From: Naegleria gruberi
Lineage: Eukaryota
Assembly (NCBI GenBank): GCA_000004985.1
Contig: GG738859.1
DNA: 64,000 nt
Reading direction: 5' to 3' (one strand)
Below, in pieces: positions 25,775-57,605 of this stretch (position 1 is its first letter; each line of letters opens with the position of its first letter). The notes under the pieces were generated by a model. The model had not been told where the DNA came from. It did no database searches and saw only the letters and a program-made list of their open reading frames with translations. The translations under genes and the position numbers were made by a program.

Positions 25775-26625
25775 TCCGTTTTACAGTATTTCCAGTAAAC
25801 AGATTCTCCTTGATGATCGATGTTTTTAGCCTTTTTGTCTTTTCAGTTAAAACCGTAGTTGAATGTATGTGAAAAATGTTTTGTAAATTAAATTAATCTT
25901 TAATCGTTTTTTGCTTTAAAAGTTGTCACTTGCAAGGCTTGATGGGTCAATTATTTTCTCAGAATATACAAGCCTAATCCATTTCAAGACAAAACCATTA
26001 TTTTTTGCCAAGAAAAAGGAAAGCTTGTCATTTGTTTGGTATTCACAATAGAATAGACTAACACTTCTGTTGCATCAACTATATTGTTGAATTATTGTTG
26101 TGATGAATAATTACAACACTATGTTGTGCACATACTGTTGTGTGATTAACTGTTATGATTTAATATTTCTATCGTCCATCTCCTGTCCAAGCCACTGCAC
26201 AAATATGAACAACATGAGAATTCAATGTAGCGGCTTTTTCGCACTTGTTGATGCAAAAATTTCATTCAACAACCCTTCTAAAGGACAAGCATAGGCTTTC
26301 TTGTTTTAGGAACGCGCACATAACAACAAAAAAATTAAACCCTTCAAGTCAATAGTGTGTGGAGTTCGTTCTGTCAGCGCGCCATATCATCAACAGTGGC
26401 CAACAGAAAAAGCAGCGAATTATTTTCATCATCATCAACGATACACATCATCATCACTAATAACAACAATAATAATTATATTATTGGATAAATATTGTTA
26501 GCACTGCAACAACAACAAGATTAACGTTTGCTACCTGATCAGTAGTAGTAACACAGGATCAAAGAAGTCAATACTTTTTGTCGGCAACAACAAACAAAAG
26601 AAACCTTGTGGGAACAATCTTTACC

Positions 26626-29349
26626 ATGTTGTCATCATCGACGATAAAACAACAAGCCATACCACCCTTTCATAATCATACGGAATTTTCTTCTCATCTT
26701 CGAATAATTGCAGAGGTTGATAAACACTCTAATAAGACAAAGTTGTATCTATACTCAATGCTGTCTAAGAACAAGATAGTCATCACACCTGATGTCCCTA
26801 AAACCATTAGTGAATTTAGAGATGAACATATGGATGTAGGCATGGTGTTTGCAGTTGTGGGCACATCTTGGTGCGGTAAATCGACTATTGCCAATGTGGC
26901 CAGACAATTATTTGGACCAAAGTATGGTCGTAATGAGAAGGCAGTTTTTGGTGATCTGATACGAGGTTCTATTGTCAAGTCCTTCTCTCAACTCTTAAAT
27001 TGTCTCAGAAACTTTTTGGACCAAGAAGATTTTGTTAAAGAGCATCAACGCACCATTCATGATAGGTTAATAGAGTTAAAGATCTTTAAACTTAAAAAGA
27101 GTTTGCAAACACCAAACTTTACATCCTCTGGTTGCGAGCCTAGAGGTCTCCACAGTGAATATGAAGCTCAGAAGAGTACAATAATAGCAACACCAATAAT
27201 GAAAGAGGAATTTGAACAATTGAAACGAGAATTGATTCAATATTTTGCTGAAAGAAATGAGGTTATAGATCGATCACTTGATATTCATTCAGACGTAAAT
27301 CGTGTGGTGAAACTCTTAGAGAGCTTATGGAACGACCCTATTGTACAAATTGTCTATGCCCTAAATCATAGAATTCCTAATCTCAACGTATCAACTAACC
27401 TAGATTACTGGATACCAAGACTTAAAAAGATTTTCTCAGCTGGCTTTTCTCCTAAATCTAAAGACATTCTCCAATCCCACCCAGGCCATAATGGTATCTA
27501 TGCCCATCATCCTATGGAATGCAAGTTTCCAAAAAATCAAACTGAGACTGTGACTGAAATTCCACTCTTTGAAGCTAAGGAAATACCATTTGTAGTGTTG
27601 GATGTTACAGACGTTAGTCGTAAATTGGAACATGTTATAGATCTTGTAACAGATATTGTATTTGTAGTTTCTATGGATGACTATTATCTTATAGACGAGA
27701 GAAATATGGACAGATTATCTGATGCCATTCAAAAATTTAGAAAACTTTGCGAGGACATGAAAGAAAGCTTCTTATCGAGAAGAATTCCACTCAAAAACAT
27801 TACACTTGTTTTTAACAAGTTTGATATATTTTCAGACAAGGCCTCCAAATCTGAGGACCCTTTTATCAAGTTAGAAACATCCCACCCAGATATTTATACT
27901 TATTATGGTACTGATTCAGGAGCTTCCCAGCACCTTATCAGGTCCCTCATTGACTATTTTGTAAACATTTACGATTCATACTTTAGAGATATAAGAGAAT
28001 TTCCAATAAGCAAACATCAAATTGAAACTTATAGACTAACATCGAGTTTACTGGCTGGTACTATACTGAACATTTGTGTAACATCTGCCACTAACAAAAG
28101 TAACATGGAAGATTTTTGGAGATTTGTGATTGGTCGTGAAAAAGGCGTTGAGCAACGTTCTTATTGTACAGACGGTTCATGGATACCGTTCAGAATGTGT
28201 AGATCATCTCTTCATGAGCAGTATGGAATCTCTTACCTTAATTGGGGAGAGAACTTCTTCATACATGGTAATAACCAACCATTTAGATTTGCTGTGCACG
28301 AAAGCCTTCTCTTACTGAGATGTCCACAGCTGGCTACTATAATAGGGTTAAACGAGAAGAACAAGAAGGCTGTAAATACTTATGAACCAGTTCCAACAAT
28401 AATGGTGGACTTTGATGTTGGTGTTTTAGCCGAATTGATACGGAGGATTTATGATGGCTTTAGTGTTTTTGATTTACAAAAATTCATTCAACACTATCCT
28501 TCTCTCCTTCCTGTTGTTATCAAGAAGCCAAAGAAGCTAACCAAAAAACCAAAGCTACTTCGACCAGTTATTCTAAAATACAAAATGATCAAGGCAAAAA
28601 CTATTAACAAGAACATTATATATAGATTTAACCATCCTCAATTTACTGATATAGTTAACTATGTTGACTTGATTGGAAATAATTTTTCTGCCCTCTCTGG
28701 TAGACATGACATGCTGTTATTCCACCAAAGTGATAACATTTCGAGTTGCAAGTTCATGCTATCGATGAGATTGCCAGGATTCACTCTTGAGAAAGATTAC
28801 TATGTACTTGTTCCATATATCAAAAAGCCCTCATATTTTAATGTTTTGAGAATACTTAACCACGAACGAGACGTTTGCATTGATAACTGGAAAGAGCTGA
28901 TAGAAATGATTTTCATCAGCAAAATGTGGCAGTTTGAAGACGATTCTATATTAGTAGAGACTTTGAGAAAAATGTTTAAAAATGTAGTTTCAGCTGATAA
29001 TGTTCACCAAATGATTCCACTGTTGTCAAATGACTTTATAGATTTCTCTCAACTTGATGACCCTGTACAAGGCAAGGTTTCAGAGAGAACCCTTCTAGAT
29101 AACCTACCAACAGAAATAATCTATGTTGTGTCTTCCTTTTTGTATGGTGTCTTTGATACAAATCCACAAAACTCTCTAATTGATCAAGACTACTTGAGTC
29201 TTATTTGTTGCCTGAATCATACCTCCTTCTTTAGGTTCTTTAAAGAGATTCCTAAGGACAAACTCAAACAATTTATTTGGAAAACTAAGTTTACCAAATT
29301 TACCCTATTTTTGAAAGAGTGTAATTCTTTCCTAGAAAAACACAAATAA
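26626..29349 (+). CDS. Divergent G-alpha-like GTPase domain fused to a ~450-aa C-terminal extension of unknown function
   Basis: Open from 26578; the first ATG is at 26626. P-loop VVGTSWCGKSTIANVARQLFGP resembles GAGESGKSTIVKQMKIIH. NKxD is LVFNKFDIFSDK and TCAT is ICVTSATNK. Switch II reads VVLDVTDVSRK instead of DVGGQR, and the arginine-finger region reads NQTETVTEI. Confidence 0.65.
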   Translation: MLSSSTIKQQAIPPFHNHTEFSSHLRIIAEVDKHSNKTKLYLYSMLSKNKIVITPDVPKTISEFRDEHMDVGMVFAVVGTSWCGKSTIANVARQLFGPKYGRNEKAVFGDLIRGSIVKSFSQLLNCLRNFLDQEDFVKEHQRTIHDRLIELKIFKLKKSLQTPNFTSSGCEPRGLHSEYEAQKSTIIATPIMKEEFEQLKRELIQYFAERNEVIDRSLDIHSDVNRVVKLLESLWNDPIVQIVYALNHRIPNLNVSTNLDYWIPRLKKIFSAGFSPKSKDILQSHPGHNGIYAHHPMECKFPKNQTETVTEIPLFEAKEIPFVVLDVTDVSRKLEHVIDLVTDIVFVVSMDDYYLIDERNMDRLSDAIQKFRKLCEDMKESFLSRRIPLKNITLVFNKFDIFSDKASKSEDPFIKLETSHPDIYTYYGTDSGASQHLIRSLIDYFVNIYDSYFRDIREFPISKHQIETYRLTSSLLAGTILNICVTSATNKSNMEDFWRFVIGREKGVEQRSYCTDGSWIPFRMCRSSLHEQYGISYLNWGENFFIHGNNQPFRFAVHESLLLLRCPQLATIIGLNEKNKKAVNTYEPVPTIMVDFDVGVLAELIRRIYDGFSVFDLQKFIQHYPSLLPVVIKKPKKLTKKPKLLRPVILKYKMIKAKTINKNIIYRFNHPQFTDIVNYVDLIGNNFSALSGRHDMLLFHQSDNISSCKFMLSMRLPGFTLEKDYYVLVPYIKKPSYFNVLRILNHERDVCIDNWKELIEMIFISKMWQFEDDSILVETLRKMFKNVVSADNVHQMIPLLSNDFIDFSQLDDPVQGKVSERTLLDNLPTEIIYVVSSFLYGVFDTNPQNSLIDQDYLSLICCLNHTSFFRFFKEIPKDKLKQFIWKTKFTKFTLFLKECNSFLEKHK

Positions 29350-29451: not shown

Positions 29452-32408
29452 ATGAAAACGATCATTGTCAGGTTCGAAGACATCACAATACCTCCTAAAG
29501 TGTTGGAAAAGTCATTCAATGATTGGGAACACTTGGCACCTTTTGAATTGTTTGAAGAATTGCAGAAATATCTTCGGGATGAATGTTTTATTCATGTACA
29601 CCAATTTTCAAAGATGATACTAAAATCGGAGGATAATGAGTATGAAATATCATCTCGTATTGTTCATCAAGTTGGCAATGTACAACTGTCAATCCAAAAT
29701 TATTATATTTCATGGTATAACTTATTCGACAAGGAAATTAGAGTTAGACTTTGTCCACTTTATCACCAACAAGAAGAGGATTCTATCGTTCCAACCGATG
29801 AAGTGTGTTTGCATTTGGGTTGTCACTCATTTACAGAAAGACAATTGTTAGAGGTGAAGGAATCGGAATTAATTGAAGAAAGGAGAGGCTATTTGTGTTA
29901 CTTATTGCAAGTAATATTTGAGGATGGAAATCATGTTGCTTCTTCTTCTGTTAAAATAGATCAATCCTACCTCATGGATACATTAGAAAAGTTTCCTACA
30001 GAGTTTGAGGCTTTTTGTAAATGGCTCATTGTTAACAAGTTGAAGAGAACAAGAGCCTATTTGAAGGAAGATCGTTATATTATTGTAAATGGAAGATATG
30101 AAATGTGCTTTCACTTAATACATGGAGGAAGATTAAGTAATCCACTCAACAATACTTCGAACGAAAGTAATGAAAGAAATCAACTGTGGATTGGGAAAGA
30201 TTTTAAAAACAAGTGTAAGGTAGTTATGAAATTTGGAATCAGAACTGAAAATGAGTTTGAAAATCTACAAAAAATCAAACATAGTCATATTATTCAAACT
30301 TTAGATCATTATCCCTCTAATGAAATACAGGAAAATGCTTTTGTTACTTTTCTATATAAGGGGCTCAATTTGAGACAACTTATTGAATCAAAGGATAATA
30401 ACCTCACATTTAAAGAAATTAGAGAAATTGTATCGCAAATTGTTGATGCCATTGCTTATCTTCATGATATGGGAATAGTTCACAAAGACATCAAACATGA
30501 AAATATTCTTATTGAGGAAAATTTGGACAAGATTTGGCTTGTAGATTTTGATGAGAATTCGTATTCAGGTGGTTGTACAATTTTTTTAAATCAACCTCCA
30601 GAAAAAGTATTATCCATGAAAGCAGATATTTGGGCATTAGGGGTACTTGTCTACCAATTAATAACAAAAGATCTGGAGACTAATATTCAAAAAGATTTTC
30701 TCAGTGGACGCATACAGATTGGACATCATATTGACATTCTAATTGAACAATCAAATGATACTAATCTCCAAACGTTAGCGAAGATTGTAAGAACGTGTTT
30801 ACAAGAAAAACAATCAAGACCCACAATATATGGGATTTATGAAATATTGTATGAAGAAGAACTTGAATTATTGGAAGACATAGAATTTGAAAGTGATATT
30901 GATGAAGAAATAGATTTATCAGAAATTGATAGGGATGATTTGATATCTCAACTATCTACTAATGGAATGAAATTGAGATATATTCCTTATTCAAACCAAG
31001 ACATGGAAATGGTAACAGCAGCTGTCAACTGTAATTGTAATGCACTGGAGTTTACCTCACCTTTATTGAAAGAGTCAGATGATTTCATTGATAGCATCCA
31101 AATACCTCCAGAGTGTGTAAAGTTGTTAGGAGTTGATAAGCAAATACGAATCATTAAGAAAGAACCATCCCTCTTCCATAGTTATAGACAACTAGTTCTA
31201 CAAGCTGTAAAGCACGACAGCTCACTTTTTCATCATTTAACAGAAGAATTGAAGAGTGACTCTGATATTTTTATTGTAGCCATCGAGAATGGATTGGAAA
31301 ACTATGAGCAATACTTGAAATATCATGCATCTTCCAAAAGTGTGGCATTGGTTGTGGTCGAATTATATCCCTCTCAACGAGAGCACTTTATTTACGATGT
31401 TTTTGAGGAAATTTATAAGGATCATTTGGATGCAATTAACAAAAACCCATTAGAATTGAGAAAAGCACCAAAACCCTTAAAGTCTTATTCTGATTTTGTA
31501 ATACAGATAGCTAAAAAGCAAATAGGCGTTCTAGAGTTTGCTTCTGATATTCTAAAATCAGATAGAAATTCATTTTAGAAGCTTCCAAGATATCACTTAG
31601 TGCTTTACAATATGCCAGTGCGAGTCTTCAATCAGATGAAGAGTTTATTGATAAAATATACAAAATAAGATGTCACGATCTGGATGCTTATCAATTAACT
31701 GGAGAAGAGAAAGAAATTTTCATGATTGCTATCTCAGGAAGGTTTAGTTTTATTCCTGAAAAATTCAAGAAGGACAGAGCTTTTGTTATGAAAGTACTGA
31801 AGAAAAGGGGAAGGATTCTAGAGTATATTCCTCACTTTTCATCTGATAAAGAGGTTGTTATGGCATCCATAATGCATTACTCATACGATCTTGAGTATGC
31901 AGACTATTCTTTACGTTCAGATGAAGAAATTGTACTGTTGGCAACCACATTGAATGGTGAGTGTTTTAGATACGCAGATTCAAAACTACAGGAAAATAGA
32001 GAATTTGTTAACAAGGTTGTCTCAATTAGTGGGCGTGCAATAGCTCATGCAAGTGAAATTTTGAAACAGGACAGAGAGATAGTGTTAGCTGCTGTTTCTC
32101 AAAATGGAAATGCATTGGCTTATGTTAATCATTTTAAGGATGATATGCAAGTGGTACTACGAGCAGTTGAGTCCAATGGTGATTCATTCCAGTTTGCCGA
32201 TCCCAAATTACAAGGTGATAAAGAGTTTGTTTTACAGGTTGTGAAACAAAACGCAAAAGCCCTTTTATTTGCATCATCCAAGTTAAAAGCCGATAGGAAT
32301 TTTATTTTGAAAATTGTGCAAACTAATGTATTCGCCTACCCTTACATTGGAGAGTACTTTAAAAACGATGAAGAAATTAAAGCAGTTTGGCAAAGTGCAT
32401 CTCAATAA
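29452..32408 (+). CDS. Protein kinase (HKDIKHEN / DFD) fused to C-terminal DUF4116 repeats; the ORF is interrupted by a 1-nt frameshift near 31573-31577
   Basis: Frame 1 ORF 29452-31578 holds the kinase domain (KVVMKFG, HKDIKHENILI, LVDFDEN, ADIWALGV) and then DUF4116-like repeats. A second frame is open from 31566 to 32408 and continues the same repeats (ALQYASASLQSDEEF, DREIVLAAVSQNGNALAYV). The switch sits at the tcaTTTTag run. Confidence 0.65.
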
Positions 32409-35279: not shown

Positions 35280-38200
35280 ATGATTCAATCATCAGCAAGG
35301 AATCTTTCAAAACATTTGATGAGGAGTGGAGGTGTTGCTTTTAAACGTACAACCCTCTCCGAATTGGATAAAAAAGTAATTCTGATTAGACAATTGGTGG
35401 ATAGATTTTATTATTCGCAAAATAGAGAGTTTGGTCAGGATTTGTCCCTTGTTGGATTAAAGAATCAAAAGATTAATTTATCTGCTAACATGATGACAAA
35501 TAGTAGTAGTACGAATAATAATTCACGTTCCTATTCATCTTCTACATCACCATCCGAGAAGAAAATTCTACTTGTCGATGGTACTCCACTTGTTGTGAGA
35601 GCTTACTTTGGAACACCTCCTCTGACTTCGTAAGTGATTTTATTGCTTTTCATCAAATGGTTCGAATAATATACAAATAGATCTAATGGAACTCCAACTA
35701 ATGCAATTTTAACATTTGCAAAGAGTTTAATTGCCATTCTGAAATCGGATGAATTTGATCATGTGGCTATCTTTTTCGATTCTGGAAAACCTTCAATAAG
35801 GAAATCAATTTCATCTGATTATAAGGCAAACAGAAAACCAACTGAAGATGTAAGTTATGACCTAGCTTTAGGAGATTCTTAAAATGTTTAGAATTTGAAA
35901 AAACAATTTCCAATCTGTAAATTATTAGCCGAAAAGATGGGCCTAAAAGTGATAAGCAAGGACGGATTTGAAGCAGATGATCTCATTGCTACAGTAGCCA
36001 GACAAGCAAAGGATGAAAAGTTTAATTCAATTGTTGTGGTTTCCTCTGATAAGGATCTTCACTGCCTTTCGGATACAAATTTAACTCTTCTTGACCCAAT
36101 GACAAAGAAGAAATTAACAATGGACGATATAATTGGAAAGTATGAATTGCCTCCAAAGTTGATTCCAGAGTTTTTGGCACTTGTTGGTGACACTGCAGAC
36201 AATATTAAGGGTGTTAAAGGTATTGGAAAGAAGAAGGCAGTTTCACTGTTGGAACAATATGGATCAATTTCTGAAATTTTGAATAATTTGGACGATGAAA
36301 ATATGGAAAAGAAGTCAAGAGAGGCCATCAAGAGTAATATTGATGACCTTAAATTATCCTTGAGGTTAGTTGCTTTGGACGAAGAAGTTCCTTTGGATTA
36401 TTCTTTACAAGATTTCCAAGTTGACCAATCCTCACTGGATTTTTCACAAAACGAAGAGGTATGTTTATATAATAATGTTCACCATTTACAAACAATCGTC
36501 AGCTCATTAAAATGTTAGAGGATTTGGAAATTAATTCAGTCATTAAACAATTAAAGAAGGAAACAGATAAGAAGGAAAAAACTACAAAATCCAAATCTAA
36601 AAAGAAGGAAGTTATAGAATCTGTTGTACTCAGTGAAGAAATGTCCTCTGCAGATGTAGCCTCCTTAAAATTATCCCACGTCTCGGATGACTCTAAAATT
36701 GGTAAGATTGTCAAAGCATCAGAGTACAATATTATTCTGAATGAGAAAGAGTTAGACTCTTTCATTGAACAGGTGAAGATATCAGGAGTAAGTTTGCAAC
36801 AATTTTCAACATACTGACATAATTTAGAATGTTTGTTTCTCAACGGAAATTTGTCTATTAAGCTTACATAATCCTGTAATGGCTGGTATATCATTCTGCA
36901 TTAGTCCAGGACAAGCATACTATCTTCCATTTTTCAAGGGTGGAAAGGTTGAATTTTTAGATTCTGTAAATATTCTAAAGGAAAGTCCAATACTTTCAAA
37001 GGTTAGGACAGAAATTATGGAAAATCCAAACATTCTCAAGATTGGCCACAATATCAAGTATCATATCAAAATGCTTGCAAACTATGGAGTTACAGGTAAG
37101 TTTTAAATTTATTTATTATTTACTAATATTCAATAGTGAAAAACTTTGACGATATCATGGTAATGTCTTATGTTTTAAATTGTGGTAAACATGGTCATGA
37201 AATGGATGAAATTGTAGAAAATGTCTTGTTACTCGATCCTAAGGAACATATCATTCCAGAGAAAGAAGTGCTTGGCATTGGTAAAAAGAAGGTTACCCTT
37301 ATGGAGGCAGATATTGTCAGTGTTGTTCATTTTGCATGCCAACATGCTGACTTGACTAAACAAGCATATGATGTTTTAAAGTCAGCCCTAGATAAGAGTC
37401 CTAAACTTACTCAATTTTACGAAGGTATCGAAAAACCTCTTGTTGAAACACTTGCAGGTATTGAAATGAAGGGAGTTTTTATGGATGAACCTGCCCTTGT
37501 GAAGATGGAAAACGAATATAGAGAAAAGATCAAAGCCATTGGAAATAAGATAAGAGAAGATGCAGGATATCCAACTATTGATGAAGATATTGAAATCCCT
37601 ACTTCAGAAGAGGAAATTGAAAGTATGATCATTGAAATGGATGAAATGAAACAAGAAGCTTCTGAAGAATTCAATATTAATTCAAATAGACAATTGGGAC
37701 AAGTGATATTCGAAAAATTGGGAATTGGTACAAAGTTAAGAAAAAAGACCAAAGTTGGAGATTATATTTTGAATGCTGAAGTTTTACAAAAACTTGCCGC
37801 AGAAGGACACAGCATTGCCAAGCATATTCTAGAATATAGGGCCTTAACCAAACTCTACAGTACATACATCTCTGGATTAAGACAACATATCAACCCATAC
37901 ACAAAGAGAATTCACACCACTTTCCAAAATGCCCTTACGGTTACTGGTAGATTGAGCTCAGTCATGCCAAACATTCAGAACATTCCTGTCAGAACAGCTG
38001 AAGGTAAACAAATAAGAAGATGTTTCATTTCTCCTTCTGATGATTATGTAATAATGAAGGTCGACTATTCACAGGTAGAGTTGAGAATTTTAGCCCATAT
38101 TGCCAATATTCCAGTGCTTAAGAATGCCTTTAAAGAAAATAAGGACGTTCACGCCATTACAGCCAGTCAAGTTTTCAATGTTCCACTCGATCAGGTCGAT

Positions 38201-38755
38201 AAGTCAACCAGAAATAAGGCCAAGGCCATTAACTTTGGTATTATCTATGGTATGAGTGAATTTGGTTTATCAAAGAGAATTGGAGTAGACACTCAAGCCG
38301 CCAAGTCATTTATTGAACAATACTTTAAGCAATATCCAGGTATTAAGAATTACATGACCAAGACTATTGAATTTTGTAGAAAACATGGTTATGTAAATAC
38401 TCTTTTCAACAGAAGATGTTGGATACCTGGTATTGAGGACCAAGGATTTGGAGGAAAATCATCTTTTGGTGAGAGAACAAGTATCAATACTCCAATCCAA
38501 GGTACCTCAGCTGATATCACAAAGATTGCAATGAACTCATTACACAAGGCATTCCAGGAGAAGGGATTGAGAACCAGAATGATTATTCAAGTTCATGATG
38601 AAATTGTTTTTGAAGTACCAAAGGATGAAGTGGAAACAGTCGAACCAATCATTAAGGAACTCATGGAAGGTGCAGCATTCTTTGGTGGAACAAACTTTAC
38701 GGTGCCACTAACCGTCGAAGCTACAGTTGACTCAAAATGGTTGGCAGATGAATAA
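35280..38755 (+). CDS. polA: Bacterial-type DNA polymerase I (family A) with 5'-3' exonuclease, degenerate 3'-5' exonuclease and polymerase domains; 6 exons; N-terminal presequence-like extension
   Basis: Exons 35280-35629, 35681-35849, 35892-36458, 36503-36787, 36828-37095 and 37137-38755 (introns 51, 42, 44, 40 and 41 nt, donors GTAAGT or GTATGT). It is collinear with E. coli Pol I. 5'-exo motifs: LVDGTPLVVRAYF, FEADDLIAT, SSDKDL, H3TH GIGKKKA. Exo-site remnants: FSTE where Pol I has FDTE, and KYHIKML where it has KYDRGIL. Pol motif A DYSQVELRILAH, motif B RNKAKAINFGIIYG, motif C QVHDEIVFE. Confidence 0.85.
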
Positions 38756-38788
38756 ATAATAAATAATTTATTTCCTAGTAAAACTGGT

Positions 38789-41626
38789 TTAGGTTCTTGG
38801 TTTATGACTATTATATTTTCTCTTATTTGGTAAAGATGAGAGTCCTTCATAGGCTTTCACTTTGCTTATTCTTACATTGAATCTTCTCAACATTTCATAC
38901 TCATCTTCTTCACTTTCTGACTCGCTTTCAGATTCTTCTTCACTGCTACTGCTTTCCACAACTTTTCTTGGACGACCAACTTTTCTCTTTGTTTCACTTT
39001 GTTCATCCTTTCTTGGTCGACCAACTTTTCTTTTTGGTTCCTCCTCGTCCTTCTTGGTTTCTTTTTTCACGTTTTGTTGTTCGTCCTTTCTTGGTCTACC
39101 AACTTTTCTCTTTGGTGTTTCATCTTCGCTTTCAGAAGATGATTCTTCCTTAACTTTGGTATTGTGAACGATTCGTCTTGGCTTTGAATCTGCTGATTCT
39201 GATTTCACACTTGAACTACTACTACTAGTTGGCTTGGAAGATGTTGATTCCTTCTTAGTGACTACCTCTTTTGGTTTGGTTTCAGTTTCGTCCTTTCTTG
39301 GGCGACCAACCTTTCTCTTTGGAGCCTCTGGTTCTGGTGTTGTTTTTGCAGATGATGATGATGAAGAAGTAGAAGAAGGTTTTACAGGCTTTGGTTGAGA
39401 TATAGGTGTTTTTGGTGTGGTGAGAATTGGCTTGGCTGAACTAGTTGACTTTGATTCTTTCTTAACAGTACTAGGAGCAGGAGTTGTCTTCTTTTCAACC
39501 TTTTTCTCCTCTACCTTCTTTGGTCTTCCAACCTTTCTCTTTTCTTCCTCTACCCCTTTAGGAGTTGTAATAACAGAGTCACTCTTTCTTGGTCTACCAA
39601 CTTTTCGTTTAGCATCGGATCTAGCTTCTTTGTCATAGTCTGATTCTGATTCAGATTCACTGCTACTTTCCTCAACCTTTCTCTTTTTTGTTTGTTGTGT
39701 TTTCTTGTCTGTTGATTCATCCTTCTTTGGTCTTCCAACTTTTCGTTTGGCTTCAGATTTGGTTCCTTCAGTTCTAGCTTTAGACTTTTCCTTACTATCA
39801 CTACTTGAAGATGATTCAGATTTTCTTGGCCTACCCACTTTTCTCTTTTTCTCCTCTTCATCTGTATTCTTCTTTGGTCTGCCAACCTTTCTCTTTGATT
39901 TGCTCTTTTCATCATCAGATTCCTCATCATATGAAAGTTCAGAGTCTTCATCTTCCTCACTTTCGCTTTCAGATTCACTCTCCTCCATAGCTTTCTTTGG
40001 AGGTCTACCTCTTTTCTTTTTAGTTTCTTCTTCTGGTTTTTCTGCCTTCTTTTTGGCAGTTCTTGTCACTCTAGGTTGTGTTGTCTCAGTGAGTGATGTA
40101 GATATTCCAGCATTTTTACATCTTCTGGTTTTGAATTCGGTATGTCTCATTATTTCTCCTTTTTGAGCCTGTTCATACATTTTAGTCATGAGAGCTCGTT
40201 CGTACACAGTCAGACCAAACTCATCCAATTGTGGGGCATCATCCTTCTTTTGTGTCTCTTCTAATTGTCTTTCTATTGATAAAAATTGTCTGAAACGTTT
40301 CTTTTCAGTCTTTCTAATATTACGAATTAAAAAAGTATTTCCAAATTTTGCAGAGTCAATAACTTCTTTTGGAAGCTTTGAGCTGTCTTCCAATATTTTC
40401 AGTGTGTACAAAGTTCTTTGTTTGAATTTTGATTCAAGTTTGTGAGCTCTTAATTTTTTAGCTTGTTCACTATCCATTTGTGTTGATTTTTCCTTAGCTT
40501 CTAGCAAGGACATATCTTTTGATGTAATTGTTCCTCTGCAATTTGCACTTCCACAATAACATTTTTGGAAGGAAACACCATAACATTCCATTGCATAGTC
40601 AAAAGTAACTTCTTCTCCTTTTTCAATATCTCTAAGTGCAAAAACACCTATCCTAGATTGATGGCCAACTGTCCATTTTTGCAATACAGAGTTTGGATCA
40701 CAACTGTGATTAATAAACCTAGCATTATTACCCTTTTTTGAGGCATCAATAATTTGATTGGTACCAACTGAAAGGAAATAATAGTGGCGTTCACCATCAT
40801 AAGCTTCTTGTCTTTGTTTGTAAATTTTTTCATCTAATACTTCTCCTACATATTCAATAATAAAAGTTCCTTTTGAAATTTTCTCTTTAGCAAAAACTCC
40901 AAACCCCTTTTCACCAGCTCTTTTAACTTCTATTTTTTTCCAACTCTTTTTTTGAAATCTATTATTTGTGCATTTAGATCCACAACTACAATAGCCGATT
41001 ACACACTCCATGCACAATAATCTATTCACACAAAATTCACCACAGTGATCATCACCTGAAATATCTCCCTTTTTTGAAGGACCACAAGTACACATAATAA
41101 TGTCATCATCAAATAAATTTTTCCAGGCATAAACTGTACTATCACCTAAATAAATATTTTCATCAATCTTTTTAAATTGTCTGCTGTCGTAAGCTGCTTT
41201 TTCGTCATCTTCATCTTTTTGTTGATTTAATTCAATTTTCCTCTTCTTTTTTGGTAATTTAACTGTTTCTTCCGATGTTTTGTTTTTCTCATCCTTACTT
41301 TCAAGTCTATTATTTCCAGAAATAAATAATTCTTGTAATAACATGGCATCTTAAAAAATTAAATAAATTAAAATTAATAATAAATTACCTTCCATATCGT
41401 TCTTGGTATGTGATGCAATAGATTCTTGTTGTTCAACACCAGTAGATTTTTTATCATCTTTGTTTTCCTCTCCAGTTGATGACACTACATTTGATGATAC
41501 ACTATTTGGATTGGATAATTCTGATTGTTGGGTATTATCGCTTGGTGGAAGTATCTGATGATCTTCCGTCGTCCCTTCCTTGTTGGGCGATGATGACGAG
41601 GTTTGGCCACTTTCCGTTTGGCTCAT
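38789..41626 (-). CDS. SET-domain (AWS-SET-postSET, SET2/NSD/ASH1-like) histone lysine methyltransferase with a long C-terminal AT-hook repeat region; 2 exons
   Basis: Exon 1 about 41626-41389, intron about 41388-41350 (GTAATT...AAG, 39 nt), exon 2 about 41349-38789. SET motifs GFGVFAKEKI, NHSCDPN, FDYAMECYG. PostSET CYCGSANCRG. Then at least 10 KRKVGRP(R/K)K AT-hooks lie in Ser/Glu/Lys-rich sequence. Confidence 0.75.
38940..40010 (-). repeat. Coding tandem repeat: iterated AT-hook motif (KRKVGRPRK/KKD) inside the SET gene
   Basis: The nucleotide unit cctttcttgg(t/g)c(g/t)accaactttt ctctt recurs on the plus strand. It produces spurious antisense ORFs reading GRPTFLF. Confidence 0.6.
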
Positions 41627-41974
41627 TTTTTTTAAAAATTATTTTTTAATATTTTTATTTGCAACTGATTGTAATATTAATCATTAATATTAATAATTAA
41701 TATTATTAATAGGATGATTTATTCTTTATTTAATTGAATTGAAATAGAAATTATTAGAAAATTTAATTCTCCATTATTGTCTATTTGTGATCAAAGATTG
41801 AAAGAATTATCCAATATTTCGAATTGAGCTATTGGATTATTTCAAATATCCAAGATCTTTTGGGTATGTATTTTGCCTGATGCTGTTCATTGTGCTCTTA
41901 CAGTTACATCCTTTGCATTTAGTTATGAATTGATTGAAATCTATACTTTCGACTAGTATGATAATTTGTAAAAA

Positions 41975-43315
41975 TTAATCGGTCATGTGATCACTAAAGA
42001 AATGTCTTGGAGTATCCTCAAGAACTAAATCTGTGGAAACTGTGCATGTATCTTTGAGGGTGTCATCAATAACTTGTTCCAATTCATCAGTCTTGGTCAT
42101 GGAGAGTGATTTGGTAATATTGGATGCAATCAATTTGACTGTTTCCATACTCTCTGGTGTATTCTTTACATATTGAGCTGTAATGTAGAGGAAAATGCTC
42201 ACAAAATTAAAGTAGATGGCCCAAGGGGACAGATCAGTTGTGAGAGCAAGATACAAATTGGCCACCAAACTCAATATCACTGCAATTTGTTTCTTCATAG
42301 AGTTGGTTTTCATCAACCAGTATGAACTGAGTGTTAATACTGCAGCACACAGAAATTCCTTCCAAATGAGTCCTAATATTCTCCAAATAAAATCTCCTTT
42401 TCGACCCTTTGAGGATGATCGTGATGATGCATTCCTATTACTACTATTAGTATTATTATTTGAATATCGATTGGAATAAATTTGTCTTGAATTTCTAATA
42501 TTTTGCAATAATTCTGATATTTTTCCACTTGGACTTGCAACGTTATCCAGCATGGAGGAGAGTGATCTTGTCTGACCAGTTTTAATATGTTTCAATTGAT
42601 TCAATAATATTCTACTCGTCCTATTTTTTGATGTCAATCCATACTTATTCAATGTTTCAATATTATTTAATAATTTTGATGAAGAATTTGCTGATCCAGT
42701 CAATCCACTAGGTTTGTTATTCTTGAAAATTGAAATATAAGTAAATGGATTCAAAATCGTCCCCTTATTTGAATATGCAAGTTCATAGAGTCTTCTTCCA
42801 ACAGCATATATCGAAATCAAAGTATTACTAACAATTAAAATTCTTCTAGTATATTTAATTGCATAGGAATGACTTTCATCCATCATACTTTCAACAATAA
42901 CTTTTAATTCTTCAATTTCCGATCGTAATTGTTCAATTTCAAAATCTATAAAACTCTTAGATGATGATTGTGCAAGAAGAGGAGAGGGTGAATAGGACCC
43001 GAGTGATGGTGATTGGTCCACCATAGCACCCATCGATGATGATGAACTGAAAGGAGGAATTGAGAGAGGAGTTGTAAATGGTGATGATGAATGCAAAAAA
43101 TTAGAATCCCTCGATGAAGTTCTAAAGTGTGATGATCTCTTGTTACTACTACTTGCACCATTAATACTATTACCACTACTATTACTTGCACCAACAACGG
43201 AGGAAATTAAAGAGTCAATCCCATTGCTACTAGGTGTTCTTTTTATGGTTGAAATGAATTCCTCCTCAATGCTGTCATTCTCTCTGGTTGGCAGAACAGA
43301 TCTGACTTTACGCAT
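41975..43315 (-). CDS. Hypothetical coiled-coil / transmembrane protein with a Ser/Asn-rich N-terminus
   Basis: 446-aa ORF. Low-complexity N-terminus, coiled coil IEQLRSEIEELKVIVE, two hydrophobic helices near residues 320-370. No family recognised. Confidence 0.4.
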   Translation of the reverse strand: MRKVRSVLPTRENDSIEEEFISTIKRTPSSNGIDSLISSVVGASNSSGNSINGASSSNKRSSHFRTSSRDSNFLHSSSPFTTPLSIPPFSSSSSMGAMVDQSPSLGSYSPSPLLAQSSSKSFIDFEIEQLRSEIEELKVIVESMMDESHSYAIKYTRRILIVSNTLISIYAVGRRLYELAYSNKGTILNPFTYISIFKNNKPSGLTGSANSSSKLLNNIETLNKYGLTSKNRTSRILLNQLKHIKTGQTRSLSSMLDNVASPSGKISELLQNIRNSRQIYSNRYSNNNTNSSNRNASSRSSSKGRKGDFIWRILGLIWKEFLCAAVLTLSSYWLMKTNSMKKQIAVILSLVANLYLALTTDLSPWAIYFNFVSIFLYITAQYVKNTPESMETVKLIASNITKSLSMTKTDELEQVIDDTLKDTCTVSTDLVLEDTPRHFFSDHMTD

Positions 43316-51445: not shown

Positions 51446-52096
51446 TTAGACAACTTGTTGATAGGAAGCCTTTCTTCTTCTGAGTACAAAGAAAATCAAT
51501 CCAGCACAACATCCAACACAACACAAAACTCCAATAATACCTCCAACAGATGCAACAGCAATCACAATTGCTGCAGTATTATCTTGTTGAGGAATGATGG
51601 TCAAATCAATAAAAACTCTTGCTGTGGCACCTTCATAGGATGGATTTCTCTTGACGAGAACTCTAATCTTACCCAAGTCGGTTCTTGGTAGAGTGACTAT
51701 ATTACCCTTTGATGATAGGTAGCCACTGTTTGGGAAGTAAAAGTAGAACATGTATTCTGCAATGGAAGGTGGAACATAGGCAGGGTTGGCTTTAACTTTT
51801 TCAACAAAGTCATTATATTGAGGTTCTGTTAAAAAGTAAACAGAAGCTCCATAGCCAGAGCTTGAATAATTCATTTTGAATTGATTATAGTCTGGACCTA
51901 CTTGACATTCCAATGCAATGGCATACTCATTGCTCCATGAAAATTTATAGTCCTTATCCACTGGTGTGCAAGGAGTTGCAACTTGTTGTTGTTGGCTTGT
52001 TGCAACCACAGTAGCATGTGAATTGTTCAACAAAAAGAGAATGGCAACAATTGAGAATAAGACTAAAGTGCAAGAGTTGAGTGGAGTATTCATCAA
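51446..52096 (-). CDS. Type I membrane glycoprotein of unknown family with C-terminal YQQV (paralogue 1)
   Basis: 216 aa. Signal peptide, about 150-aa ectodomain with conserved Cys (PC...ECQV), TM helix IVIAVASVGGIIGVLCCVGCC, short basic tail ending ...YQQVV-stop. Confidence 0.5.
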   Translation of the reverse strand: MMNTPLNSCTLVLFSIVAILFLLNNSHATVVATSQQQQVATPCTPVDKDYKFSWSNEYAIALECQVGPDYNQFKMNYSSSGYGASVYFLTEPQYNDFVEKVKANPAYVPPSIAEYMFYFYFPNSGYLSSKGNIVTLPRTDLGKIRVLVKRNPSYEGATARVFIDLTIIPQQDNTAAIVIAVASVGGIIGVLCCVGCCAGLIFFVLRRRKASYQQVV

Positions 52097-52631
52097 TGCA
52101 GCTTGTTTTTTTTAAGTGTTCACTTTAACACTCCGTGTAAGCAAGGTTATGAATCTTATAGGAGGTTACCATTTGAACATCATGCTAAGAATGGATATTT
52201 AAGAGATTGAATACGCAACATAAGCGTACAATTGGATCATCGAAGTAAAAAAGTGCAAAGCAACATGGTTTGAAACAGTTTACAACAAATGTCAATTCAA
52301 CTTATTAATACGACATTTCATGTTTTGAGGGAGAGTACATGAGTACATAATATCCTGTAATTGTTAGATTATTCAAAGAGACTTGGCATCTTTTTACTTG
52401 CAAGTAAAAACTTTCAAATTCATTTCTATTTAGTTTTCAAAAATTGGTTAATAGAAACTTCCTTTTCGCTTTTGAGCTTTCCAAACTATTATTCGAATCT
52501 ATAATATGTTACCAAGGATTAGTGAAATCAAACCTTTCATTGAAACCCTTTACAACGGTATAGATATTTTAAAAATAAATTTCAAAGAAGAGACGCTGCC
52601 AGATGTGTTACAAAAAGATAATAACATTCAT

Positions 52632-53297
52632 TTAAACTTGTTGATAAGCATCTGATACCATGGGTGTTGTCATTTGTTCATTGCTCATAGCAACTTTTCT
52701 TCTTTTAACCACAAACACAATGAATGCAATGGCACATGCTCCACAACACAACACTCCAATCAATCCTCCAACAACCATAACAGCAATCACAATCGATTTG
52801 GAATTGTTTTTTTGTGGAGTGATTAGCATTTCAAGATAAACACTGGATACTGAGGTTGTTGGTAAGGTTGGATTTCGTTTTACAAGAACTCTGATGGTGC
52901 CATAACCTTCATCTCTTGGCTTGGGGATGACATCACCTTTGGAAATCTTGTAGGAAGTATCAGAGTAGTAGAAGGAATGCAAAAATTCTGGCGGAAGGTA
53001 TTGTGGATTGGATTTCACATTTTCAAGAAAGGAAGAATATTGAGAATCTAATAGAACAAACACGGAAGAACCATATCCATAGGTTGAGAATGTAATTTTG
53101 AGTTCATTGCATTCAGAAGATACTTGACATTCCATTGCAATCGAATAATTGTTAGCATGTGAAAATTTAAAGGTTTCTTCCATATAACATGGTGTTGCAC
53201 TTTGACAATGAACAGTGGAGGAACTGATTAACAATAATTGGAGAGCAATCATTAACGCGAAAACCACTAACAGTAACGAATTGTTTGAAGTGTTCAT
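52632..53297 (-). CDS. Type I membrane glycoprotein, paralogue 2 of 51446-52096
   Basis: 221 aa with the same architecture. Shared blocks: MECQV, YGYGSSVF/SGYGASVYF, NPQYLPP/NPAYVPP, IRVLVKRNP, TM helix plus RRK, C-terminal ...DAYQQV-stop. Confidence 0.5.
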   Translation of the reverse strand: MNTSNNSLLLVVFALMIALQLLLISSSTVHCQSATPCYMEETFKFSHANNYSIAMECQVSSECNELKITFSTYGYGSSVFVLLDSQYSSFLENVKSNPQYLPPEFLHSFYYSDTSYKISKGDVIPKPRDEGYGTIRVLVKRNPTLPTTSVSSVYLEMLITPQKNNSKSIVIAVMVVGGLIGVLCCGACAIAFIVFVVKRRKVAMSNEQMTTPMVSDAYQQV

Positions 53298-56153: not shown

Positions 56154-57605
56154 ATGTTTCAAAATCTTCACGAGCAAGGGATAACAATTATTCTCGATGA
56201 TCAAATTGGATCGGAGAGGCTTTCTTTTAAATATAACCTCTCTCGATTCTATAATTTAGTAGTACATTTCACAGAGACAGCTCCAACACTGGCAACATTA
56301 TTGGAGGATGAACCCGAATTATTGCTAGAATCGATGAAGAGTTCTTCGACACCATTCATTCCCGATCAATATAAGAATGATTTAAATTTTCTGAGGAAGG
56401 CCTGTCGAATGAATTGTAGTTTGATAACAAATAATGATTTAATGCAAAATGATAAAGAGTGCTGCTTGATTACAGCATCTCAAAAAGGAGGTAAATTATT
56501 GCATTGTTGCAAAATCAAAGATCTAGATGTGATATTGCAAGCTTTCAAAGTTAATCCAAATGATATTTCATTCACATACGGATCAATGTTAATTAACACT
56601 CAAGAATATCAGGAATGGAAGAAACTGCAGGAACAGAAAAAAATTGCGCCAACCCACAAGACCAATCATAAAAAGGAAATTTTGGATGAAAAAGAAATAG
56701 TTCTCAATTCAGTTAATAAGAACGGAATGAACTTGAGAAAATTCCCATCATTTGCTTTGGATAGAGATGTTGTTCTAGCAGCCATAAAACAAAATGGTAC
56801 CATATTCCAAACAATTGATGAAAAGTGGAAAGAAGATTTGGAAATTGTGAGTACTGCAATAGATTCTGATCCCATGAATTTAAAATTCCTTCCAAATCAT
56901 TTCAAAAGTGACAGATCATTAGTGATGAAAGCAGTAACCAGCAATGGATTTGCTCTAAAATTTGCTGGTTCATCATTCCAAAGAGACAAGCAAATTGTTC
57001 TTTCCTCATTCACAAGTAATGGAAAAGCTGTAGAATTTGTACACAAGAGCCTGTGGTTAGATGAGGAAATTGTGAGATGTGCTTCTAGAAAAACTGGAAG
57101 ATGTCTATTTCATGCAAGTGAATGCATTAAATCCAATAAGGAACTAGCTCTCCAAATCATTCAAAAATTCCCAGAAGGATTCACCTACTTGAGTAATAGT
57201 TTGAAAACAGATAGGGACTTTATCTTATCAGCAATAGAGAAGAACCATTTAATTCTCTATCAAATCAGCCCCTTATTGAAACAAGATAACTCATTTCTAA
57301 TAGATGCCCTCAAACGAAACTCACTCATCTTTCCCAATTTACCTGAGAGTTTCCGATACGACCCCAATATGATCATTCTATCCTGCAAGAATTCTACTCA
57401 ACATCTGACATCTTTTCTGTATTACAAACAATCGCTCAGTCATAACTTTGACTTTGCATTACAATGTACTCAAATGAATGGTTCAGCTCTCAATTGCTTT
57501 AGTGATTTTTCACATAACGAGTTAAAATTACTTGCACTTGCTGCAGCTTCATCTTTCTTTCATCAGAAACACCCAAATTTTAAATTGCTTCTTCGTGATG
57601 ATTAG
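56154..57605 (+). CDS. DUF4116 repeat protein
   Basis: 483 aa. The C-terminal two thirds consist of about 8 repeats of the form (K)xDRxxVLxAVxxNGxALxFAxxxLKxD, the same repeat as in the C-terminus of the kinase gene at 29452-32408. Confidence 0.55.
   Translation: MFQNLHEQGITIILDDQIGSERLSFKYNLSRFYNLVVHFTETAPTLATLLEDEPELLLESMKSSSTPFIPDQYKNDLNFLRKACRMNCSLITNNDLMQNDKECCLITASQKGGKLLHCCKIKDLDVILQAFKVNPNDISFTYGSMLINTQEYQEWKKLQEQKKIAPTHKTNHKKEILDEKEIVLNSVNKNGMNLRKFPSFALDRDVVLAAIKQNGTIFQTIDEKWKEDLEIVSTAIDSDPMNLKFLPNHFKSDRSLVMKAVTSNGFALKFAGSSFQRDKQIVLSSFTSNGKAVEFVHKSLWLDEEIVRCASRKTGRCLFHASECIKSNKELALQIIQKFPEGFTYLSNSLKTDRDFILSAIEKNHLILYQISPLLKQDNSFLIDALKRNSLIFPNLPESFRYDPNMIILSCKNSTQHLTSFLYYKQSLSHNFDFALQCTQMNGSALNCFSDFSHNELKLLALAAASSFFHQKHPNFKLLLRDD

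What the first reader, a model, noticed from the sequence alone, without database searches (positions are those of the whole stretch)
51446..53297. Tandem pair of novel type I membrane proteins ending in a YQQV tyrosine-based sorting motif
Two adjacent same-strand paralogues of 216 and 221 aa share a signal peptide, a Cys-containing ectodomain of about 150 aa (blocks MECQV, NPxYxPP, IRVLVKRNP), one TM helix rich in Cys/Gly (possible palmitoylation) and a short tail. The tail ends in Y-Q-Q-V a few residues from the stop, fitting the YxxPhi motif used for AP-complex sorting to endosomes and lysosomes (LAMP/CD63-like placement). No known family was recognised. This looks like a lineage-specific lysosomal or phagosomal membrane glycoprotein family expanding by tandem duplication.
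Basis: partly seen in the sequence, partly recalled or inferred. Interest (0 to 1): 0.5.

Follow-up and report, generated by a model that had tools for sequence, protein, structure and literature searches.

The report
Naegleria orphan membrane proteins with sorting tail
Two neighbouring Naegleria gruberi genes belong to a tiny, unstudied family of single-pass membrane proteins that all end in a tyrosine signal of the kind cells use to send proteins to endosomes and lysosomes; this makes them candidate lysosome or phagosome markers for this amoeba, but not a new kind of system.

Summary
Window 51446-52093(-) (215 aa from the ATG, not 216) and 52632-53297(-) (221 aa) are intact, intron-free paralogues, 45% identical (E 1e-62). 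Each has a signal peptide, an ectodomain of about 130 aa, a 29-30 residue Gly/Cys-rich TM helix and a tail ending YQQVV or YQQV. They are Naegleria gruberi 'predicted proteins' EFC46381.1 and EFC46382.1.

An exhaustive HMMER search of 1.84 billion representatives found only three more members: one on another N. gruberi scaffold and two from metagenomes. Outside the tandem pair the members are 22-36% identical. All five keep Y-x-x-[V/I] at the C-terminus or one residue from it, and the Tyr is invariant.

Best reading: a lineage-restricted family of post-Golgi type I proteins sorted by AP adaptors to endosomes, lysosomes or phagosomes. It parallels LAMP/CD68 tails and the Entamoeba CPBF receptors. 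Heavy glycosylation and palmitoylation are not supported. Localisation and function are inferred only. Interest is modest.

The parts
51446..52093 (-). Paralogue 1 CDS with stop: 215 aa from the ATG, N. gruberi EFC46381.1 / NAEGRDRAFT_65764
   Evidence: ORF. Identical to P0002. 45% identical to paralogue 2.
52013..52093 (-). Paralogue 1 predicted signal peptide (aa 1-27, ...NNSHA|TV)
   Evidence: N-terminal hydrophobic segment, translation. The cleavage site is inferred by eye.
51587..51973 (-). Paralogue 1 lumenal/extracellular jelly-roll beta-sandwich (aa 41-169) with the invariant Cys42/Cys63 pair
51482..51571 (-). Paralogue 1 TM helix (aa 175-204), with GGxxG and CCxxCC
51449..51481 (-). 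Paralogue 1 cytosolic tail RRRKASYQQVV. The YQQV motif is at 51452-51463, with Tyr 7 residues from the membrane.
   Evidence: family alignment
52094..52631 (.). 538 bp spacer between the paralogues (3' flank of paralogue 2 and promoter of paralogue 1)
   Evidence: It holds most substitutions and all indels relative to a 98.4%-identical environmental strain.
52632..53297 (-). Paralogue 2 CDS with stop: 221 aa, N. gruberi EFC46382.1 / NAEGRDRAFT_47897
   Evidence: ORF. Identical to P0006.
53205..53297 (-). Paralogue 2 predicted signal peptide (aa 1 to about 31)
   Evidence: The cleavage site is inferred.
52812..53189 (-). Paralogue 2 jelly-roll beta-sandwich ectodomain (aa 37-162) with invariant Cys37/Cys57
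52707..52793 (-). Paralogue 2 TM helix (aa 169-197)
52635..52706 (-). Paralogue 2 cytosolic tail of 24 aa. YQQV forms the last four residues (52635-52646), with Tyr 21 residues from the membrane.
   Evidence: alignment

Best explanation

Proposed route:
1. A cleaved signal peptide puts a 130-aa disulfide-stapled jelly-roll (GOLD-like) domain into the lumen or outside the cell.
2. A long 29-30 residue helix with a GGxxG face anchors the protein.
3. A basic stop-transfer cluster is followed by a tail whose only conserved element is a C-terminal Y-x-x-[V/I].
4. This motif is read by the mu subunits of AP adaptor complexes (AP-1/-3 at the TGN and endosomes, AP-2 at the surface). It drives the protein into endosomes and on to lysosomes or phagosomes.

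The tail length probably matters. Paralogue 1, P0003 and P0004 have short tails with Tyr 7-8 residues from the bilayer, which is LAMP1/CD68 geometry and suggests steady-state lysosomal residence. [quoted passage not shown]

The lumenal sandwich most likely binds a ligand, either a glycan or a protein cargo. That would make the family a small receptor or escort, comparable to the Entamoeba CPBF receptors, rather than a glycan-coat protein.

Shown here: gene structure, topology elements, family membership, motif conservation and predicted fold. Inferred: AP binding, destination, ligand binding and any division of labour between the paralogues.
For: - Motif conservation: the Tyr is invariant and Y-x-x-[V/I] lies at the C-terminus or one residue from it in 5 of 5 members (YQQVV, YQQV, YQSI, YVHI, YQTVL). 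Outside the tandem pair the members are only 22-36% identical. Tails range from 10 to 24 aa, with the indels lying between the basic cluster and the Tyr. Chance expectation is about 2% per protein.
- Tail geometry: p1 (RRRKASY), P0003 (KRRKNKPY) and P0004 (RKRRSGY) put Tyr 7-8 residues from the membrane. In LAMP1, an RKR anchor plus a correctly spaced YXXI in an 11-aa tail is sufficient for lysosomal targeting, and spacing changes divert the protein to surface/early-endosome recycling (PMC2199866).
- Adaptor recognition: YXXphi is recognised by AP-1, -2, -3 and -4 (PMC5297682). Naegleria has the adaptor machinery, including an AP-5 mu homologue (PMC3191125).
- Precedent in another phagocytic protist: Entamoeba CPBF1-11 are lineage-specific type I receptors ending in YxxL or YxxLA, and they deliver hydrolases to lysosomes and phagosomes (PMC3285589).
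- TM length: 29-30 residues suits post-Golgi membranes rather than ER/Golgi (the length rule is from my own knowledge).
- Fold: both paralogues model to the same sandwich, in a fold class dominated by ligand-binding modules (GOLD, CBM, MAM, CUB, TNF/C1q).
- Constraint: against a 98.4%-identical environmental strain, the CDSs show 0.3-0.6 substitutions per 100 bp and no indels, while the spacer takes most of the changes.
Against: - No localisation, expression or binding data exist for any member, and no paper mentions the accessions.
- YxxPhi also serves plain endocytosis and basolateral sorting, and it occurs by chance.
- Two of the five members have long tails that break the LAMP spacing rule.
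- A hydrophobic C-terminal residue can also act as an ER-export signal.
- There are few sequons, so the proteins are unlike classical lysosomal membrane glycoproteins.
- The models rest on alignments of only 2-5 sequences (mean pLDDT 73), and the fold matches are generic (Foldseek E about 1e-3, TM about 0.3).
- Conservation of the Tyr-binding pocket in N. gruberi mu subunits was not checked.
Confidence: 0.5

Rival explanations
1. A surface receptor or adhesin. The jelly-roll domain faces outward and binds prey or substrate glycans. The YxxPhi acts only as an AP-2 endocytosis or phagocytic-uptake signal, and the steady state is at the plasma membrane.
For: - The long TM helix fits the plasma membrane.
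- CBM, MAM and TNF-like lectin folds are among the structural matches.
- Paralogue 2 and P0005 carry the Tyr 17-21 residues from the membrane, which is typical of endocytic rather than lysosomal signals (PMC2199866 shows that altered spacing gives surface/early-endosome recycling).
Against: Three of five members have the exact short-tail lysosomal geometry. No conserved binding-site residues can be named. The ectodomain is a single small domain held close to the membrane, only about 5 residues from the helix, which gives poor reach for an adhesin.
Confidence: 0.22
2. A divergent p24/TMED-like cargo receptor that cycles between the ER and Golgi, with a lumenal GOLD domain and a short tail whose terminal hydrophobic residue serves COPII export.
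For: - The overall plan is the same: about 200 aa, type I, short tail.
- Paralogue 1 ends in VV, like human TMED2 (sequence).
Against: - No member hits Pfam EMP24_GP25L at E<=10.
- hhalign of the family against TMED2/TMED10 gives probability 0.9%.
- There is no coiled-coil stalk: the sandwich ends about 5 residues before the helix.
- There is no FF or KKxx/dibasic COPI/COPII tail motif; the conserved tail residue is Tyr.
- The 29-30 residue helix is long for ER/Golgi residents.
- Jelly-roll capsids and CBMs score equally well.
Confidence: 0.06
3. The conserved Tyr is a phosphorylation and docking site (hemITAM-like YxxL/I/V), or the C-terminus is a PDZ-type ligand. The family would then signal rather than traffic.
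For: The Tyr is invariant with a hydrophobic residue at +3. Kinases are abundant nearby and in the Naegleria genome generally.
Against: The motif sits at the extreme C-terminus, with no conserved acidic context. Residues at positions -2 and 0 do not fit one PDZ class (QQV, QVV, QSI, VHI, TVL). As far as I know, Naegleria lacks a developed pTyr-SH2 system.
Confidence: 0.05
4. The motif has no sorting role. The family is a structural or accessory subunit of some membrane complex, and the C-terminal YxxPhi is conserved for contacts within that complex.
For: The TM helix is the best-conserved segment (IVIAxxxVGGxIGxLCC, invariant Gly), which suggests helix-helix packing with a partner. The only PDB sequence hits are single-pass accessory subunits such as sodium-channel beta-4, through the TM region (E 0.003-0.005).
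Against: Those hits are compositional TM matches. Tail length varies from 10 to 24 aa, which is hard to reconcile with a fixed structural contact but easy to reconcile with a linear motif.
Confidence: 0.1

Closest known systems
LAMP family tails (LAMP1 ...RKRSHAGYQTI, CD68, DC-LAMP)
   Same: Type I topology. A basic anchor is followed by a tail of about 11 aa that ends in (G)Y-Q-x-[I/V], with Tyr 7-8 residues from the membrane, in paralogue 1, P0003 and P0004. The helix contains Gly. In LAMP1 the RKR anchor plus a correctly spaced YXXI is sufficient for lysosomal targeting (PMC2199866).
Entamoeba histolytica CPBF1-11 lysosomal/phagosomal hydrolase receptors
   Same: A lineage-specific paralogous family in a phagocytic amoeboid protist. 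Members have a signal peptide, one TM helix near the C-terminus, and YxxPhi either at the very end or followed by one residue (CPBF1 YxxL, CPBF8 YxxLA; PMC3285589). This mirrors YQQV versus YQQVV and YQTVL here.
   Different: CPBFs are about 900-aa proteins with large, unrelated ectodomains and demonstrated cargo. The Naegleria proteins are about 200 aa, and no sequence relation was detected (one search returned only five clusters).
p24/TMED (EMP24_GP25L) GOLD-domain cargo receptors
   Different: No coiled-coil stalk, no FF/dibasic tail and no sequence-profile similarity. The helix is longer. The conserved signal is YxxPhi.
Cation-dependent mannose-6-phosphate receptor and plant VSR-type sorting receptors
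   Same: Small type I receptors with a ligand-binding lumenal domain and a tyrosine-based AP signal, cycling between TGN and endosomes (PMC5297682).
   Different: They have different lumenal folds and longer tails with several signals. No homology was detected.

Membership tests
LAMP family (Pfam PF01299 Lamp) | Lumenal LAMP domain (beta-prism with conserved disulfides) detectable by profile | tested here: not met
   No Lamp hit at E<=10 for any of the five members. No LAMP chain in the PDB profile search.
LAMP family (Pfam PF01299 Lamp) | LAMP-domain fold | tested here: not met
LAMP family (Pfam PF01299 Lamp) | Short tail of about 11 aa ending in GYxxPhi, with Tyr 6-9 residues from the membrane | tested here: met
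   Met by paralogue 1, P0003 and P0004 (Tyr at 7-8). Not met by paralogue 2 or P0005 (Tyr at about 17-21).
LAMP family (Pfam PF01299 Lamp) | Heavy N-glycosylation of the lumenal domain | tested here: not met
   0-2 sequons per ectodomain, none conserved. Actual glycosylation cannot be tested here.
p24/TMED (Pfam PF01105 EMP24_GP25L) | Profile match to EMP24_GP25L | tested here: not met
   No hit at E<=10. hhalign against TMED2/TMED10 gives probability 0.9%. The control sequences hit PF01105 at 7e-57.
p24/TMED (Pfam PF01105 EMP24_GP25L) | GOLD-type beta-sandwich lumenal domain | tested here: inconclusive
p24/TMED (Pfam PF01105 EMP24_GP25L) | Coiled-coil stalk between the GOLD domain and the TM helix | tested here: not met
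   The last strand ends at aa 162 (paralogue 2) or 169 (paralogue 1), and the TM helix starts 4-5 residues later.
p24/TMED (Pfam PF01105 EMP24_GP25L) | Tail with FF and/or dibasic COPII/COPI motifs | tested here: not met
   No FF or KKxx in any tail.
YxxPhi-sorted type I endolysosomal membrane proteins (a functional class, not a homology family) | Signal peptide, single TM helix, and a cytosolic C-terminal YxxPhi conserved among homologues | tested here: met
   5 of 5 members.
YxxPhi-sorted type I endolysosomal membrane proteins (a functional class, not a homology family) | Binding of the motif to AP mu subunits, and Tyr-dependent endolysosomal localisation | not testable with these tools
   This needs experiments in Naegleria or a heterologous system.
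Entamoeba CPBF family | Sequence homology to CPBF ectodomains | tested here: not met
   The exhaustive profile search returned only five Naegleria-type clusters. Size is about 200 aa against the 110 kDa reported for CPBF1 (PMC3465781).

The most novel reading that the evidence does not exclude
The family is Naegleria's own lysosomal/phagosomal sorting receptor or escort. A minimal GOLD-like lumenal module would bind a hydrolase or glycan cargo, coupled to a LAMP1-type C-terminal GYxxPhi tail. The tandem pair would be subfunctionalised by tail length: the short tail for the direct TGN-to-lysosome route and the long tail for surface/early-endosome recycling. This would be an independent invention of the job done by M6P receptors, sortilin/Vps10 and Entamoeba CPBFs. 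It would also give the first specific membrane marker for Naegleria lysosomes.
Probability: 0.2. Interest if true: 0.55.

Novelty: new variant of a known kind. Interest (0 to 1): 0.3.

Why it matters
Naegleria is a deep-branching phagocytic eukaryote and the sister of the brain-eating N. fowleri. It has the full adaptor machinery but almost no known cargo or organelle-specific membrane markers. LAMPs, as far as I know, are confined to animals. A compact, lineage-specific type I family whose only conserved cytosolic feature is a LAMP1-like C-terminal YxxPhi offers three things: a ready-made candidate marker for its lysosomes or phagosomes, a natural test of whether the 'Tyr 7-8 residues from the membrane' rule is ancient, and a possible new small cargo receptor. 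If it proves to be an ordinary surface protein with an endocytic signal, little is lost. The genes are already in GenBank as 'predicted protein'.

Tried and rejected
- Pfam on both proteins and on all five members gave only TM-composition noise: Podoplanin, DGF-1_C, ETRAMP.
- PDB sequence-profile searches hit only TM segments of sodium-channel beta subunits, MHC and CD33. I rejected these as compositional.
- LAMP-domain idea, prompted by the tail: rejected on fold and profile.
- p24 membership: rejected on profile, stalk and tail.
- Viral origin, suggested by the jelly-roll capsid matches: rejected. Composition is flat at about 34% GC across the window, the neighbours are housekeeping eukaryotic genes, and the proteins carry a signal peptide and a TM anchor.
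- More family members:
  - Word-index searches with p2, with the 5-member profile and with p1 returned only known members.
  - Two later metagenome-contig scans returned nothing.
  - The contigs carrying P0003 and P0004 are under 1.7 kb and give no context or tandem copy.
  - P0005's contig was not on record.
- The AFDB Foldseek library was unavailable, so structure-only paralogues in N. gruberi could not be sought.
- Literature searches for the accessions and for the ENA project returned nothing.
- Palmitoylation: the Cys cluster is mid-helix and not conserved in two members, so I treat it as unsupported.
Full report
**1. What is there**

The minus strand carries two uninterrupted ORFs at 51446-52096 and 52632-53297.
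- The first is 216 aa only if read from a TTG. The next codon is ATG (52093), which gives 215 aa.
- Both translations are identical to GenBank models of Naegleria gruberi: EFC46381.1 / XP_002679125.1 / NAEGRDRAFT_65764 (215 aa) and EFC46382.1 / XP_002679126.1 / NAEGRDRAFT_47897 (221 aa). Both are named 'predicted protein'.
- The window is therefore N. gruberi nuclear DNA. This fits its flat GC of about 34%, its dense intron-poor genes and its neighbours.
- Those neighbours are a MYST acetyltransferase, GINS Sld5, an EndoG-type nuclease, RCC1-repeat and DUF4116 proteins, and saccharopine dehydrogenase.

The two proteins are 45% identical over 212 aa (E 1e-62). No third copy lies in the window.

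**2. Anatomy**

Each protein has the following parts:
- An N-terminal hydrophobic signal-like segment.
- An ectodomain of about 130 aa.
- One C-terminal hydrophobic helix of 29-30 residues (AIVIAVASVGGIIGVLCCVGCCAGLIFFVL and IVIAVMVVGGLIGVLCCGACAIAFIVFVV).
- A basic stop-transfer cluster.
- A tail: RRRKASYQQVV* in paralogue 1 and KRRKVAMSNEQMTTPMVSDAYQQV* in paralogue 2.

**3. Are they real, constrained genes?**

A metagenome contig (L001, ENA ERZ929261) carries both genes in the same order at 98.4% DNA identity.
- The two CDSs show 4 and 2 substitutions (0.6 and 0.3 per 100 bp) and no indels.
- The 538-bp spacer between them takes most of the substitutions and all of the indels.
- That pattern is what coding constraint predicts, although the number of coding changes (3 synonymous, 3 non-synonymous) is too small for a dN/dS estimate.

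**4. How big is the family?**

A profile of the pair was scored with HMMER against all 1.84 billion cluster representatives. Five clusters passed E<=0.001:
- The two window genes.
- P0005, which is N. gruberi EFC47025.1 (NAEGRDRAFT_65118) on another scaffold.
- Two metagenome-only proteins, P0003 (196 aa) and P0004 (195 aa).

Other searches added nothing.
- Three word-index searches of the 5.8-billion set found no new members.
- No homologue from any other named species appeared.
- I cannot verify that the other Naegleria genomes are fully represented in these libraries. 'Restricted to N. gruberi and close environmental relatives' is therefore the cautious wording.
- Apart from the tandem pair, members are 22-36% identical.
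- No Pfam family matches any member.
- PDB sequence-profile hits are TM-composition matches only.

**5.

Yes. The five C-termini are shown below.

| Member | C-terminus |
|---|---|
| Paralogue 1 | ...RRRKAS**YQQV**V |
| Paralogue 2 | ...VSDA**YQQV** |
| P0003 | ...KRRKNKP**YQSI** |
| P0004 | ...RKRRSG**YVHI** |
| P0005 | ...KRGGEE**YQTV**L |

- The Tyr is one of only 11 invariant columns in the family alignment, and it is the only invariant one in the tail.
- Tail length varies from 10 to 24 residues. The indels fall between the basic cluster and the Tyr, so the motif stays pinned to the C-terminus.
- From window amino-acid frequencies, a YxxPhi in the last five residues is expected in about 2.3% of proteins. 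It occurs in 3 of 48 other window ORFs.
- One occurrence therefore means little. Retention in every diverged member is selection.

**6. What the motif's geometry implies**

- In LAMP1, the RKR anchor plus a YXXI motif in an 11-residue tail suffices for lysosomal delivery. Deleting one residue or adding five before the motif traps the protein in surface/early-endosome recycling (PMC2199866).
- Paralogue 1, P0003 and P0004 reproduce that geometry: Tyr is 7-8 residues after the helix and the motif is C-terminal. P0004 even has GY.
- Paralogue 2 and P0005 hold the Tyr at about 17-21 residues.
- The tandem paralogues thus differ in exactly the parameter shown to switch route in animal cells. This is an inference, not a result.
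- YXXphi is read by AP-1, -2, -3 and -4 (PMC5297682). Naegleria has adaptor machinery down to an AP-5 mu homologue (PMC3191125).
- I did not check the Tyr pocket of the N. gruberi mu subunits.

**7. The ectodomain**

AlphaFold2 was run on paralogue 2 with a 2-sequence alignment and on paralogue 1 with a 5-sequence alignment.
- Both gave the same topology: eight strands in a sandwich, with one helix after strand 4, running straight into the TM helix.
- Core pLDDT is about 77-91 and mean pLDDT 73.
- The two invariant ectodomain Cys sit on the first two neighbouring strands. This is compatible with a disulfide, but coordinates were not inspected.

- Alongside them are Vip3 and other carbohydrate-binding modules, ssDNA-virus capsids, TNF/C1q, CUB and MAM domains.
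- Foldseek is weak (best E about 7e-4, TM about 0.3).
- No LAMP domain appears.

The fold is thus a common ligand-binding sandwich with the same type I orientation as in p24 proteins. It does not contradict the proposed topology, and it does not assign a family.

**8. Is it a p24?**

No, by every test available.
- No EMP24_GP25L hit at E<=10 for any member.
- hhalign of the family against human TMED2 and TMED10 gives probability 0.9%.
- No coiled-coil stalk, no FF or dibasic tail, and a helix about 10 residues longer than is usual for early-secretory residents. The length rule is from my own knowledge.

**9. Claims that do not hold up**

- 'Glycoprotein': the ectodomains carry 0-2 NxS/T sequons. 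The one in paralogue 2 at N164 is only 5 residues from the helix, and none is conserved family-wide. A LAMP-like glycan shield is unlikely.
- 'Palmitoylation': the CC/CxxC cluster lies mid-helix, 10-13 residues from the cytosolic end, and is missing in P0004 and P0005.
- The conserved helix feature is instead GGxxG with an invariant Gly. This suggests helix-helix packing, either self-association or a partner.

**10. Best explanation and rivals**

Best explanation (confidence about 0.5): a lineage-restricted family of AP-sorted type I proteins of the endocytic/phagocytic pathway. Short-tail members probably reside in lysosomes or phagosomes, and long-tail members probably cycle via the surface. 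The small lumenal sandwich most plausibly binds a ligand.

The nearest functional precedent is the Entamoeba CPBF family. These are lineage-specific type I receptors that end in YxxL (CPBF1) or YxxLA (CPBF8) and carry hydrolases to lysosomes and phagosomes (PMC3285589). The same 'motif at the end or one residue from the end' variation is seen here.

| Rival | Confidence |
|---|---|
| Surface receptor or adhesin whose motif serves endocytosis only | 0.22 |
| Accessory subunit of a membrane complex | 0.10 |
| Divergent p24-like early-secretory receptor | 0.06 |
| Phosphotyrosine or PDZ signalling | 0.05 |

**11. Novelty and score**

- The genes are already deposited but uncharacterised, and no paper mentions them.
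- The sequence family is new. The architecture and the sorting principle are textbook.
- I class it as a new variant of a known kind. Interest is modest (0.3).
- Its value lies mainly as a candidate organelle marker or receptor for Naegleria cell biology, and as a natural test of the antiquity of the tail-spacing rule.

Noticed in passing
window 52094-52631: The 538-bp spacer between the two paralogues is far more variable than its surroundings when compared with a 98.4%-identical environmental strain (L001). It holds most of the substitutions and all of the indels, concentrated around spacer positions 225-345. The 417 bp upstream of paralogue 2 and the 303 bp downstream of paralogue 1 each differ at a single site.
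   Followed up: partly
window 56154-57605 (+) and 29452-31578 (+): There are two DUF4116-repeat proteins. One has at least 5 repeats (E 1.6e-63). In the other, a protein kinase domain is fused to DUF4116. This uncharacterised repeat is, as far as I know, greatly expanded in Naegleria.
   Followed up: no
window 38001-42000; ORF 38789-41344 (-): There is strong negative AT skew here (-0.20 to -0.23). It coincides with an 851-aa SET/AWS histone methyltransferase carrying AT-hook motifs.
   Followed up: partly
window 3915-6725 (-): A 936-aa ORF joins a UDP-GlcNAc 2-epimerase domain (E 2.5e-92) to a region with a weak, below-cutoff match to a family-2 glycosyltransferase (26.9 bits against a cut-off of 27). 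This bacterial-looking sugar-nucleotide enzyme architecture is unusual in a eukaryotic genome.
   Followed up: no
window 37136-38755 (+): A family-A DNA polymerase domain ORF (E 3.7e-144). It may be an organellar or PolQ-like polymerase; I did not examine it further.
   Followed up: no
window 26578-29349 (+): A 923-aa ORF with a G-protein alpha domain stretched over about 400 residues (aa 88-481), plus a long extension with no Pfam hit. It is an unusually large G-alpha.
   Followed up: no
L001 (ENA ERZ929261 / run ERR1078381, project PRJEB11402): A sample labelled as a metagenome contains N. gruberi-like DNA at 98.4% identity to the reference across this locus. A close N. gruberi strain was therefore present in that sample.
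   Followed up: no
window 41975-43315 (-): A 446-aa ORF with no Pfam match at E<=1e-5. It contains an 18-bp imperfect tandem repeat at 43144-43193.
   Followed up: no
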